Source: a virus (lineage: Duplodnaviria > Heunggongvirae > Uroviricota > Caudoviricetes). From it: a stretch of DNA of 19,591 bases. Both the position numbers and the translations under genes were made by a program. Position 1 is the first letter of the stretch. Each line of letters opens with the position of its first letter. The DNA is taken from the IMG/VR virus record IMGVR_UViG_2703718871_000002. One strand, given 5' to 3'. This document shows positions 18,834 through 19,125 of the stretch, piece by piece. The notes below the pieces were generated by a model, which was not told where the DNA came from, searched no databases, and was given only the letters and a program-made list of their open reading frames with translations.

Positions 18834-18909
18834 GGCCCTTTAGCTCAGTGGTGAGAGCGAGCGACTCATAATCGCCAGGTCGCTGGTTCAAATCCAGCAA
18901 GGGCCACCA
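18834..18909 (+). tRNA. ileZ: tRNA, anticodon CAU; very similar to E. coli tRNA-Ile2 (lysidine, reads AUA); Met not excluded
   Basis: Hand-folded cloverleaf: acceptor GGCCCTT/AAGGGCC, D-arm GCTC..GAGC, anticodon loop CTCATAA, T-arm GCTGG-TTCAAAT-CCAGC, encoded CCA. Symbol assigned by analogy to Stx-phage tRNA loci, from memory. Confidence 0.85.
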
Positions 18910-18918
18910 TATCAGATA

Positions 18919-18995
18919 TCGCCATTAGCTCATCGGGACAGAGCGCCAGCCTTCGAAGCTGGCTGCGCGGGGTTCAAGTCCCCGATGGCGGTCCA
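18919..18995 (+). tRNA. argN: tRNA-Arg, anticodon UCG (reads CGA/CGG)
   Basis: Hand-folded: acceptor TCGCCAT/ATGGCGG (U1-G72 wobble), D-arm GCTC..GAGC, anticodon stem CCAGC/GCTGG with loop CTTCGAA, T-arm CGGGG-TTCAAGT-CCCCG, discriminator U, CCA. Symbol by analogy, uncertain. Confidence 0.7.
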
Positions 18996-19008
18996 TTATC
19001 TGCATCAT

Positions 19009-19085
19009 GCGTTGTTAGCTCAGCCGGACAGAGCAATTGCCTTCTAAGCAATCGGTCACTGGTTCGAATCCAGTACAACGCGCCA
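19009..19085 (+). tRNA. argO: tRNA-Arg, anticodon UCU (reads AGA/AGG)
   Basis: Hand-folded: acceptor GCGTTGT/ACAACGC, anticodon stem ATTGC/GCAAT with loop CTTCTAA (same loop as E. coli argU), T-arm ACTGG-TTCGAAT-CCAGT, CCA. Symbol by analogy, uncertain. Confidence 0.85.
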
Positions 19086-19099
19086 CACTTATTTTCCCT

Positions 19100-19125
19100 G
19101 GCTCGCTTTTGCGGGCCTTTTTTTT
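19100..19125 (+). terminator. intrinsic terminator closing the tRNA operon
   Basis: GGCTCGC-TTTT-GCGGGCC (one G-U pair) followed by an 8-T run, 15 nt after the third tRNA. Confidence 0.7.

What the first reader, a model, noticed from the sequence alone, without database searches (positions are those of the whole stretch)
18834..19125. Rare-codon tRNA trio downstream of Q without an adjacent toxin gene
Three tRNAs (CAU Ile2-like, Arg-UCG, Arg-UCU) decode AUA, CGA/CGG and AGA/AGG, all rare in E. coli, and end in a strong terminator. This Q-tRNA arrangement is the one I recall upstream of stx2 in Stx-converting phages, but here the tRNAs are followed by about 490 bp of structured non-coding DNA and then the start of an unrelated ORF at the window edge. 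The tRNA-Arg(UCG) also has an unusual U1-G72 first pair and a U discriminator.
Basis: partly seen in the sequence, partly recalled or inferred. Interest (0 to 1): 0.5.

Follow-up and report, generated by a model that had tools for sequence, protein, structure and literature searches.

The report
Stx-phage tRNA trio, toxin-less prophage
The three tRNA genes are real and are the well-known ileZ-argN-argO cluster of Shiga-toxin-type lambdoid phages, here in a relative that carries no toxin cassette, which is the commoner state in E. coli and so is ordinary.

Summary
Observation confirmed. ARAGORN and Rfam call three tRNAs at exactly the stated coordinates (CAU, UCG, UCU), followed by a strong terminator.

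The window is 99.9% identical to a 933W-like prophage of E. coli 2012EL-2448. From 18357 to 19123 it is 97.4% identical to phage 933W, and ileZ is identical. In 933W a 1339-bp stx2AB cassette sits between the tRNA terminator and the motif TCACAATTCAG. The window has about 7 nt there.

The "structured non-coding DNA" contains the known prophage sRNA STnc100 (139 bits). The ORF at the window edge is nanS-p, the gene that also follows stx2 in 933W, so it is not unrelated.

The toxin-less junction occurs in 1029 of 5426 complete E. coli genomes and the trio in 2288. In an IMG/VR sample, 31 trio loci have this junction and 7 carry stx.

The prophage uses AUA 2.0x, AGA 5.7x, AGG 6.2x, CGA 1.7x and CGG 1.4x more than host core genes. 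This fits codon supplementation, though it is not specific to late genes.

U1·G72 in argN is a lineage-specific C-to-T change. U73 is conserved across the family.

Verdict: already known, low interest.

The parts
17346..18176 (+). Late antiterminator Q, 276 aa, two-repeat PF03589 type (QuuQ / P22 gp23-like). It is not Q933W.
   Evidence: Pfam PF03589 at E 2.4e-49 with 2 matched stretches. PGAP annotates it 'antitermination protein'. It is 88% identical to the Q of phage phi467 and about 44% to P22-type Qs.
18202..18296 (+). Putative late promoter and short-transcript terminator belonging to this Q (inferred).
   Evidence: Promoter-like sites at 18202-18231 and 18234-18262, and a terminator at 18276-18288 plus a T-run. 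This stretch has no 933W counterpart. Function is inferred and was not tested.
18357..18392 (+). Remnant of the last 36 nt of the 933W-type Q gene. It marks a recombination junction.
   Evidence: Homology to 933W starts at 18357 (query position 158). The AF125520 Q CDS ends at L003:1179, which maps to window 18392.
18380..18671 (+). 933W-type PR' (18380-18407), a qut-like site (18421-18428), a first hairpin (18440-18462) and tR' (18643-18671). Together these form the StxS sRNA region.
   Evidence: Coordinates transferred from the AF125520 annotation with an offset of 17213. Promoter TTTACG-16-TATCAT and a hairpin at 18437-18458. StxS is reported as 258 nt from PR' to tR' in Sakai Stx phages (PMC7547250).
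18680..18793 (+). C-terminal remnant of a DNA methyltransferase gene (pseudogene).
   Evidence: PGAP marks it 'site-specific DNA-methyltransferase, incomplete, missing N-terminus'. It gives no Pfam hit on its own. Related phages carry a full-length methylase here.
18796..18824 (+). pT, the tRNA operon's own promoter: TTGCAG-17-TATTAT followed by a GC-rich discriminator.
   Evidence: [quoted passage not shown] My consensus scan did not list the site, because the -35 hexamer matches only 3 of 6.
18834..18909 (+). ileZ, tRNA-Ile2 type (anticodon CAU, expected to be lysidine-modified), decodes AUA.
   Evidence: ARAGORN. Rfam 72.5 bits. PGAP annotates tRNA-Ile. Identical to 933W ileZ and 68/76 identical to K-12 ileX, with the same anticodon loop and the C4-G69 and C5-G68 pairs.
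18919..18995 (+). argN, tRNA-Arg(UCG). CGA and CGG are its expected codons. It carries U1·G72 and U73.
   Evidence: ARAGORN. Rfam 53.4 bits. All 21 cloverleaf pairs are standard, one of them G·U. A20 and C35 are present and the discriminator is U. It differs from 933W argN at 3 positions.
19009..19085 (+). argO, tRNA-Arg(UCU), decodes AGA (and AGG).
   Evidence: ARAGORN. Rfam 70.1 bits. All 21 pairs are Watson-Crick. Its anticodon loop is identical to that of host argU, and it has G73.
19100..19125 (+). Intrinsic terminator of the tRNA operon.
   Evidence: Stem of 7 pairs (6 G-C), loop of 4, then T8. AF125520 annotates the homologous site as a terminator.
19126..19132 (.). Empty cargo slot. 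This is where 933W carries the 1339-bp stx2AB cassette.
   Evidence: Alignment with 933W and Nil3. Cassette length and junction sequences.
19162..19352 (+). STnc100 sRNA gene (PasD-related prophage sRNA) with its own terminator at 19322-19341.
   Evidence: Rfam RF02076 at 139.2 bits against a gathering score of 47, E 3.9e-31, full-length match. Terminator. Literature on STnc100/PasD upstream of sialic acid esterase genes (bioRxiv 10.64898/2026.05.13.724894).
19360..19381 (-). Minus-strand terminator-like hairpin, convergent with the STnc100 terminator. The transcript it would end is unknown.
   Evidence: 9 pairs (8 G-C) followed by T7. 933W has a hairpin plus T-run at the same place with a different sequence. 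No Rfam family matches 19353-19575.
19576..19591 (+). Start of nanS-p (SASA-family sialate O-acetylesterase, 674 aa), which runs off the window.
   Evidence: PGAP annotates 'SASA family carbohydrate esterase' at L001 21377-23401. Pfam finds DUF1737, SASA and DUF6645. The start aligns with 933W L0105.

Best explanation
This is the ileZ-argN-argO tRNA operon of a 933W-type (Stx-phage-like, short-tailed lambdoid) prophage that carries no stx cassette.

Shown:
- The three genes are bona fide tRNAs, near-identical to those of phage 933W.
- They lie between the late antiterminator region (Q, PR', StxS/tR') and STnc100 - nanS-p - lysis genes.
- The only difference from 933W at this junction is the absence of the 1.34-kb stx2AB cassette.
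- The toxin-less arrangement is the more frequent one in E. coli.

Inferred mechanism:
- The operon is self-contained, with promoter pT, three tRNAs with encoded CCA ends and a terminator.
- It would be transcribed at a basal level in the lysogen from pT.
- After induction, Q-modified RNA polymerase starting at the late promoter would read through the upstream terminators and transcribe it much more strongly.
- The precursor would be matured by host RNase P and RNase E.
- ileZ would be converted by host TilS to a lysidine-34 tRNA-Ile that reads AUA.
- argO reads AGA/AGG.
- argN supplies a U34 decoder for CGA/CGG, an anticodon that E. coli lacks.
- Together they raise the supply of decoders for codons the prophage uses 1.4- to 6-fold more than host core genes, easing translation of phage genes and, in toxin-bearing relatives, of AUA-rich stx2A.
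For: Predictors:
- ARAGORN and Rfam accept all three tRNAs.

Identity of the locus:
- The window is 99.9% identical to a prophage in NZ_CP027586, whose downstream genes are nanS-p, holin, lysozyme, Rz, terminase, portal and an N4-gp56-type capsid.
- Window 18357-19123 is 97.4% identical to 933W and many Stx2 phages annotated ileZ/argN/argO.
- ileZ is identical to 933W ileZ and 89% identical to host ileX, with a compensatory C6-G67 to U6-A67 change.

Expression signals:
- The pT hexamers are identical to the annotated 933W pT.
- A primary TSS driving the tRNAs was mapped in the Sakai Stx2a prophage during lysogeny (PMC7547250).
- A terminator follows argO.

Codon counts, 49 prophage CDS against 44 host core CDS:
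- ATA 7.2 vs 3.7 per 1000 (p = 1.4e-4)
- AGA 7.1 vs 1.3 (p = 5e-14)
- AGG 5.4 vs 0.9 (p = 2e-11)
- CGA 5.1 vs 2.9 (p = 0.008)
- CGG 8.6 vs 6.0 (p = 0.02)
- stx2A of 933W has 15 ATA in 318 codons.

Prevalence:
- The trio is in 2288 of 5426 complete genomes, and the toxin-less junction in 1029.
- In the IMG/VR sample, 31 trio loci are toxin-less with STnc100 directly adjacent, 7 carry stx and 14 carry other cargo.
Against: - The codon enrichment is not specific to late genes. Early-right genes are at least as enriched. The gene immediately downstream (nanS-p) and the major capsid gene are poor in these codons. This weakens a simple 'late-gene booster' model.
- Enrichment for the argN codons is small (1.4-1.7x).
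- argN has a pyrimidine discriminator (U73), whereas the three host Arg tRNAs compared (argU, argQ, argX) and argO have A or G.
- 17 of 58 argN copies in other prophages have at least one broken stem pair, against 5 of 86 for argO. No compensatory changes are seen. argN may therefore be dispensable.
- Nothing here measures expression, charging or modification in this strain.
- The host comparison uses a single 50-kb core region.
Confidence: 0.8

Rival explanations
1. Lysogenic conversion. The operon is transcribed constitutively from pT in the lysogen and mainly benefits the host by improving translation of AT-rich, horizontally acquired genes. These include type III secretion genes, effectors and toxin genes on co-resident prophages. 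Dosage would scale with the number of prophage copies.
For: - A primary TSS upstream of the tRNAs was detected in non-induced Sakai cultures (PMC7547250).
- Three terminators separate the tRNAs from the late promoters, so lysogen expression must come from pT.
- A genome can hold up to 13 places matching the trio query, and this host has 4.
- EHEC virulence genes and both Stx operons fall into a codon-usage cluster that favours A/U-ending codons (PMC13185646).
Against: - The trio is equally common in prophages of non-STEC strains.
- No measurement of tRNA levels or of a host phenotype exists here.
- This reading is compatible with the main explanation rather than exclusive of it.
Confidence: 0.3
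2. Counter-defence. The phage tRNAs act as spare parts that replace host tRNAs cut by anticodon nucleases. From my own knowledge, examples of such nucleases are colicin D against tRNA-Arg and PrrC- or PARIS-type enzymes against tRNA-Lys. The replacement tRNAs would keep translation going during infection.
For: - The same slot holds alternative tRNA sets: Lys(UUU)-Thr-Gly after ileZ, and Arg+Gly.
- From my own knowledge, tRNA-Lys(UUU) and tRNA-Arg are known targets of anticodon nucleases.
- 933W argO carries A37G in the anticodon loop.
Against: - In this window the anticodon loops of ileZ and argO are identical to those of host ileX and argU. They would therefore not escape a loop-specific nuclease.
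- The anticodons match the prophage's codon excess well.
- No nuclease is known to target tRNA-Ile2.
Confidence: 0.08
3. Passive relic. The tRNAs, or at least argN, are hitch-hiking remnants with no current function in this prophage.
For: - About 29% of argN copies elsewhere have broken stems.
- Chimeric or truncated arrays exist in other loci (L025, L080).
- argN has U73.
- The region is littered with gene remnants: the Q933W tail and the methylase fragment.
Against: - In this window all three cloverleaves are intact.
- ileZ is identical in 107 of 117 sampled copies, although that sampling pattern was itself taken from ileZ.
- 81 of 86 argO copies have no broken pair.
- The promoter and terminator are conserved.
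- The cluster persists in inducible, virion-packaged phages such as 933W.
Confidence: 0.1
4. The tRNAs are remnants of a chromosomal tRNA integration site (att-site scars), not phage genes.
For: tRNA hits near prophage sRNA genes have been read as integration hot spots in a recent survey (bioRxiv 10.64898/2026.05.13.724894).
Against: - The cluster lies in the middle of the prophage, between Q and the lysis genes, about 20 kb from either end.
- It is present at the same internal position in the 933W genome record.
- It has its own promoter and terminator.
- All three genes are full length, with intact acceptor stems.
Confidence: 0.01

Closest known systems
ileZ-argN-argO tRNA cluster of Stx2 phage 933W (AF125520) and VT2-Sakai/Sp5
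   Same: - Same three anticodons in the same order and on the same strand.
- 97.4% identity over 18357-19123.
- ileZ is identical.
- Same pT promoter hexamers and same terminator.
- Same upstream PR'/StxS/tR' region and methylase remnant.
- Same downstream STnc100 and nanS-p.
   Different: - There is no stx2AB cassette: 1339 bp in 933W against about 7 nt here.
- Q933W is replaced by a 276-aa PF03589 Q.
- argN differs at 3 positions, including C1 to U1. argO has A37 where 933W has G37.
stx-negative Stx-phage-like phages and prophages: phage Nil3 (AM051322), TL-2011a, vB_EcoP_phi296/315/367, PPwrbA prophages
   Same: - Same toxin-less order: tRNA terminator, then STnc100, then nanS-p.
- Nil3 is 97.9% identical across the junction and has the same 'TTTTTTTTAAATGTCTCACAATTCAG' junction.
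   Different: - Nil3 and the others keep a 933W-type Q (144 aa in Nil3).
- Some keep a full-length methyltransferase.
- Only three complete genomes share this window's Q-to-tRNA configuration over its whole length.
Host tRNA-Ile2 (ileX/ileY), tRNA-Arg(UCU) argU, tRNA-Arg(ACG) and tRNA-Arg(CCG)
   Same: - ileZ is 68/76 identical to ileX, with an identical anticodon loop and identical acceptor pairs 1-5.
- argO shares the anticodon loop of argU.
- All the Arg tRNAs share A20 and C35.
   Different: - ileZ has A27·C43 where ileX has G27·U43.
- argO and argN have stems unrelated to the host genes.
- The UCG anticodon has no counterpart among the K-12 Arg tRNA genes (own knowledge; argU, argQ/Z/Y/V and argX were seen).
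- argN has U73.
STnc100 / PasD family of prophage sRNAs upstream of sialic acid esterase genes
   Same: Full-length Rfam match at 139 bits, located directly upstream of nanS-p and downstream of a PF03589 Q, as described for this family.
   Different: Nothing notable. Targets and expression were not examined here.

Membership tests
933W-type ileZ-argN-argO phage tRNA cluster | Three tRNA genes with anticodons CAU, UCG and UCU, in that order, on the late-gene strand | tested here: met
   ARAGORN, Rfam, and the AF125520 annotation of the homologous genes.
933W-type ileZ-argN-argO phage tRNA cluster | Sequence homology to the 933W cluster | tested here: met
   97.4% identity over 767 nt. ileZ is 76/76 identical, argN 74/77 and argO 76/77.
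933W-type ileZ-argN-argO phage tRNA cluster | Position between Q/PR'/tR' and the nanS-p and lysis genes of a lambdoid prophage | tested here: met
   Annotated context in NZ_CP027586 and alignment with 933W.
933W-type ileZ-argN-argO phage tRNA cluster | Own promoter (pT) and terminator, and transcription in vivo | tested here: inconclusive
   The sequence elements are conserved. A TSS was mapped only in Sakai Sp5 (PMC7547250). There are no expression data for this strain.
Stx-converting phage | Carries stxA/stxB between the tRNA terminator and nanS-p | tested here: not met
   No stx in the window or in the 20 kb downstream. The slot is about 7 nt long. This is therefore an Stx-phage-like prophage, not an Stx phage.
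tRNA-Ile2 (lysidine-34, AUA decoder) | CAU anticodon in an ileX-like body, with C4-G69 and C5-G68 and the ileX anticodon loop | tested here: met
   Alignment with K-12 ileX. PGAP calls it tRNA-Ile. That these acceptor pairs are TilS determinants is from my own knowledge.
tRNA-Ile2 (lysidine-34, AUA decoder) | C34 actually modified to lysidine and the tRNA charged with Ile | not testable with these tools
   Requires mass spectrometry or aminoacylation assays.
E. coli ArgRS substrates (tRNA-Arg identity set) | A20, C35 and U36 or G36 | tested here: met
   Both argN and argO have A20 and C35. Position 36 is G in argN and U in argO. The identity set itself is from my own knowledge.
E. coli ArgRS substrates (tRNA-Arg identity set) | Purine discriminator (A73 or G73) | tested here: not met
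   argO has G73, so it meets the feature. argN has U73, in every copy examined. argN may be a poorer ArgRS substrate. This was not tested biochemically.
STnc100 sRNA (RF02076) | Covariance-model score above the gathering threshold over the full model | tested here: met
   139.2 bits against 47, model positions 1-206 of 206.
NanS-p prophage sialate O-acetylesterase | DUF1737 N-terminus, SASA esterase domain and DUF6645 C-terminus, encoded upstream of the holin gene | tested here: met
   Pfam on the full ORF taken from the matching genome, its context, and start-codon alignment with 933W L0105. Only the first 16 nt lie inside the window.

The most novel reading that the evidence does not exclude
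The prophage tRNA operon may be more than a codon-supply device for the phage. It could be constitutively expressed from pT and multiplied across several prophages per genome, acting in the lysogen either as a dosage-dependent booster of AT-rich acquired genes or as spare tRNAs against anticodon nucleases. argN (UCG anticodon, U73, fast-evolving) could be a non-canonical tRNA that is poorly charged by ArgRS or charged differently.
Probability: 0.12. Interest if true: 0.45.

Novelty: already known. Interest (0 to 1): 0.1.

Why it matters
It matters little beyond correct annotation. The locus shows that stx occupies a discrete cargo slot between the tRNA terminator and STnc100 in a widespread prophage backbone. 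The tRNA trio belongs to that backbone, not to the toxin cassette.

This is useful when judging whether a Q-tRNA-nanS-p region in a draft genome signals a toxin phage: it does not by itself. It also bears on the origin of Stx phages. The biochemical status of argN (U73) remains a small open question.

Tried and rejected
- Literature searches for ileZ/argN/argO in the held library found nothing relevant. The 933W genome paper is not held under the PMC id I recalled for it. Two papers on the region flanking stx do not mention the tRNAs.
- Covariation analysis of 30 distinct argN variants was uninformative. No pair changes on both sides, and the shuffles equal the observed values. Support for the cloverleaf therefore rests on ARAGORN and Rfam.
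- A permissive Rfam search of 18100-19591 found no further family above chance. StxS is absent, and AsxR and AgvB give no hit. Nothing explains 19353-19575.
- The 'late-gene-specific rare-codon enrichment' idea was tested and not supported. Enrichment is prophage-wide, and nanS-p and the capsid gene are poor in these codons.
- The idea that the tRNAs are att-site scars was rejected on position.
- The idea that the locus is a damaged Stx phage that lost stx could not be established. The right border of the empty slot (TTTTTAAATGTC-TCACAATTCAG) resembles the borders of non-stx cargo versions (TerB-family or 118-aa ORF cassettes) more than the stx2 border. A deletion through T-run microhomology from a non-stx version is as plausible as an ancestral empty site. 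The direction of change is unresolved.
- The genome-contig scan for argN found only 4 species representatives: E. albertii, an Escherichia sp. and two MAGs.
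Full report
**1. Observation**

ARAGORN finds exactly three tRNA genes in the 19.6-kb window, all on the + strand: 18834-18909 (anticodon CAU), 18919-18995 (UCG) and 19009-19085 (UCU). Rfam's tRNA model scores them 72.5, 53.4 and 70.1 bits against a gathering score of 29.

A hairpin of 7 pairs (6 G-C) at 19100-19117 is followed by eight T. The sequence confirms U1·G72, U73 and an encoded CCA in the UCG tRNA. The 490 bp from 19086 to 19575 contain no credible ORF. An ATG at 19576, preceded by GGGAGG, opens a reading frame that leaves the window.

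**2. What the locus is**

The last 1.4 kb of the window is 99.9% identical to a prophage in E. coli 2012EL-2448 (NZ_CP027586) and two other clinical isolates. The annotated context shows a lambdoid prophage with this gene order:

| Region | Genes |
|---|---|
| Recombination genes and neighbours | exo, RecT, gamL, kil |
| Immunity region | Rha, a type II restriction-modification pair, cI, cro |
| Replication and nin region | helicase, NinG, NinH |
| Late control | antitermination protein, methyltransferase fragment |
| tRNA cluster | tRNA-Ile, tRNA-Arg, tRNA-Arg |
| Downstream of the cluster | SASA-family esterase, DUF1378, DUF826 |
| Lysis | holin, lysozyme, Rz |
| Virion | terminase, portal, N4-gp56-type major capsid, tail genes |

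This is the 933W (Sepvirinae-like) architecture.

From 18357 to 19123 the window is 97.4% identical to 933W, VT2-Sakai and many other Stx2 phages. In those records the three genes are annotated ileZ, argN and argO.

The three-way alignment with 933W and the stx-negative phage Nil3 shows the following:
- Window and 933W are collinear up to the T-run of the tRNA terminator.
- 933W then carries 1339 bp containing stx2A and stx2B.
- Collinearity resumes at TCACAATTCAG.
- The window, like Nil3, has only AAATGTC between these two points.

There is no stx remnant in the window or in the 20 kb downstream.

**3. The "structured non-coding DNA" and the "unrelated ORF"**

Positions 19162-19352 match Rfam STnc100 (RF02076) over the full model at 139 bits, E = 3.9e-31. 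933W has the homologous sRNA gene just downstream of stx2B. A recent survey describes STnc100 and its relative PasD as prophage sRNAs found directly upstream of sialic acid esterase genes and near PF03589-type Q genes (bioRxiv 10.64898/2026.05.13.724894).

The ORF at the window edge is nanS-p. The complete 674-aa product from the matching genome has DUF1737, SASA and DUF6645 domains. Its start aligns with 933W L0105, the gene that follows stx2B. The downstream ORF is therefore the normal neighbour, and the locus is intact.

**4. Upstream architecture**

The Q gene here (17346-18176) encodes a 276-aa protein with two PF03589 repeats. It is 88% identical to the Q of phage phi467 and about 44% to P22-type Qs. 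It is not Q933W.

Promoter-like sites (18202-18262) and a terminator (18276-18296) follow it. These are presumably its own late promoter module.

Homology with 933W begins at 18357, inside the last 36 nt of Q933W. It then continues through these elements, with coordinates transferred from AF125520:
- PR' at 18380-18407
- a first hairpin at 18440-18462
- tR' at 18643-18671
- a methylase remnant at 18680-18793
- pT at 18796-18824

Sy et al. (PMC7547250) showed that PR' to tR' in Sakai Stx phages yields the 258-nt StxS RNA. [quoted passage not shown] The pT hexamers (TTGCAG-17-TATTAT) are identical in the window.

**5. How common the arrangement is**

The trio with its terminator is found at 80% coverage or more in 2288 of 5426 complete E. 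coli genomes, with up to 13 places matching the query per genome and 4 in this host.

A 271-nt probe spanning argO, the terminator, the junction and the 5' part of STnc100 is contiguous in 1029 genomes. These include APEC O1:K1:H7 and other strains with no STEC designation in their records.

I also sampled 120 IMG/VR contigs with an ileZ pattern. Of these, 58 carry the full trio:

| State of the slot | Trio loci |
|---|---|
| Window's toxin-less junction, STnc100 directly adjacent | 31 |
| Other content between tRNAs and STnc100 | 14 |
| stx | 7 |
| Too short to tell | 6 |

Across all sampled loci, the other content found between the tRNAs and STnc100 includes a TerB-family ORF (PF05099), a 118-aa ORF without a Pfam hit, a methyltransferase and an IS element.

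Other tRNA sets occupy the same position elsewhere: Lys-Thr-Gly after ileZ, and Arg+Gly. The position between the tRNA terminator and STnc100 is thus a cargo slot. The empty state is the commonest, and the tRNAs belong to the backbone rather than to the toxin cassette.

The right border of the empty slot (TTTTTTTTAAATGTC-TCACAATTCAG) resembles the right border of non-stx cargo versions (GAAATTTTTAAATRCY-TCACAATTCAG) more than the stx2 border. An origin by T-run microhomology deletion of a non-stx version is as likely as an ancestral empty site. The direction of change is unresolved.

**6. The tRNAs themselves**

*ileZ.* It is identical to 933W ileZ and 68/76 identical to K-12 ileX. It has the same anticodon loop, the same acceptor pairs 1-5 and a compensatory C6-G67 to U6-A67 change. 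G27·U43 is replaced by A27·C43. PGAP calls it tRNA-Ile. It is an Ile2-type tRNA, expected (not shown) to be lysidinylated.

*argO.* All 21 of its pairs are Watson-Crick. Its anticodon loop matches argU, and it has G73.

*argN.*
- A20, C35 and G36 are present, but the discriminator is U73. The three host Arg tRNAs compared (argU, argQ, argX) and argO have A or G.
- U73 is invariant in the 30 distinct in-register variants aligned.
- U1 is private to this lineage. 933W, Nil3 and the in-register IMG/VR copies all have C1, so U1·G72 is a single transition that keeps the pair as a wobble.
- argN is the least constrained of the three. There are 33 distinct sequences among 62 copies.
- 17 of 58 in-register copies have one to three broken pairs, against 5 of 86 for argO.
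- No compensatory change is seen.
- Outside E. coli, the argN pattern occurs in only four species-representative genomes: E. albertii, an Escherichia sp. and two MAGs.

**7. Function**

I counted codons in 49 annotated prophage CDS (11,205 codons) and 44 host core CDS from the mod-bio-moa region of the same chromosome (13,562 codons).

| Codon | Prophage per 1000 | Host per 1000 | Ratio | p |
|---|---|---|---|---|
| ATA | 7.2 | 3.7 | 2.0 | 1e-4 |
| AGA | 7.1 | 1.3 | 5.7 | 5e-14 |
| AGG | 5.4 | 0.9 | 6.2 | 2e-11 |
| CGA | 5.1 | 2.9 | 1.7 | 0.008 |
| CGG | 8.6 | 6.0 | 1.4 | 0.02 |

The excess is prophage-wide. Early-right genes are at least as enriched as late genes, and nanS-p and the capsid gene are poor in these codons. 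stx2A of 933W has 15 ATA in 318 codons, which explains why the cluster suits a toxin cassette when one is present.

The best-supported mechanism is a self-contained tRNA operon:
- It has its own promoter (pT) and terminator.
- It would be expressed at a basal level in the lysogen.
- It would be read through by Q-modified polymerase after induction.
- It supplies decoders for codons the phage over-uses.

The steps shown are identity, homology, conserved signals and the codon excess. The steps inferred are expression in this strain, processing, modification, charging and benefit.

Rivals:
- A host-directed lysogenic-conversion role is compatible with the main explanation and is supported by the lysogen TSS.
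- A counter-defence role against anticodon nucleases is weakened because the ileZ and argO anticodon loops equal the host's.
- A relic status is plausible only for argN.
- An att-site scar is excluded by position.

**8. Comparison with the known, and verdict**

Every component is a described element:
- the 933W ileZ-argN-argO cluster, with pT and terminator
- PR'/StxS/tR'
- the methylase remnant
- STnc100
- nanS-p
- a PF03589-type Q

The locus fails the one defining feature of an Stx-converting phage, which is stx itself. It should be filed as an stx-negative, Stx-phage-like prophage. Nil3, TL-2011a, the phi296 group and about a fifth of complete E. coli genomes carry the same junction.

The only mildly open item is whether argN, with U73 and signs of relaxed constraint, is a fully functional arginine tRNA.

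Noticed in passing
window 8489-8676 (-): C4 antisense RNA (RF01695, 77 bits) and isrK (RF01394, 59 bits) lie in tandem. They sit just upstream of, and overlap, the 5' end of the Rha-family regulator gene (7790-8572, -). This looks like a P1 immI-like / Gifsy isrK-type antirepressor control module in the early-left region.
   Followed up: no
window 9189-11608 (-): A type II restriction-modification pair sits between the Rha gene and cI. It comprises a BsuBI/PstI-family endonuclease (317 aa) and an Eco57I-type methylase-domain protein (489 aa). This is a defence cargo inside the immunity region.
   Followed up: no
window 17346-18671: Two late-control modules lie in tandem. First comes a PF03589-type Q with its own promoter-like sites and terminator (18202-18296). 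Then come the last 36 nt of Q933W and an orphan 933W-type PR'/StxS/tR' region (18357-18671). This is a recombination junction inside Q. Only 3 complete genomes share the whole configuration.
   Followed up: partly
window 19353-19575, both strands: A minus-strand hairpin plus T7 (19381-19360) is convergent with the STnc100 terminator. A plus-strand terminator-like site lies at 19451-19466. 933W keeps both as structures, although the sequence of the minus-strand hairpin differs. No Rfam family matches, and the transcripts they would end are unknown.
   Followed up: partly
IMG/VR loci L010, L031, L035, L074, L114, L033 (between last tRNA and STnc100): The slot that holds stx2AB in 933W holds other cargo elsewhere: a TerB-family ORF (PF05099), a 118-aa ORF with no Pfam hit (in 14 or more loci), a 331-aa methyltransferase-like ORF, or an IS insertion.
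   Followed up: partly
IMG/VR loci L025, L080, L022: Some tRNA arrays are decayed. One is an argN-5'/argO-3' chimera joined at the anticodon loop (L025). Another is a truncated argO (L080). They show recombination between the two Arg tRNA genes and erosion in some prophages.
   Followed up: no
L005 (NZ_CP077649) 1501-1653; IMG/VR loci with Met-Lys-Thr-Gly: Other prophages carry different tRNA sets in the same Q-to-nanS-p position: Arg(UCU)+Gly, or ileZ followed by Lys(UUU)-Thr(UGU)-Gly(UCC).
   Followed up: no
window 18860 and 18876 (ileZ positions 27 and 43): ileZ has A27·C43 where host ileX has G27·U43. Both sides have changed, from a wobble pair to a potential protonated A·C wobble. This is conserved in 113 of the 116 in-register ileZ copies sampled.
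   Followed up: partly
L133 (UQIB01000015.1, 'uncultured Collinsella sp.' MAG contig): An exact argN-pattern match occurs in a contig assigned to an actinobacterial MAG. This is most likely a mis-binned Escherichia prophage contig.
   Followed up: no
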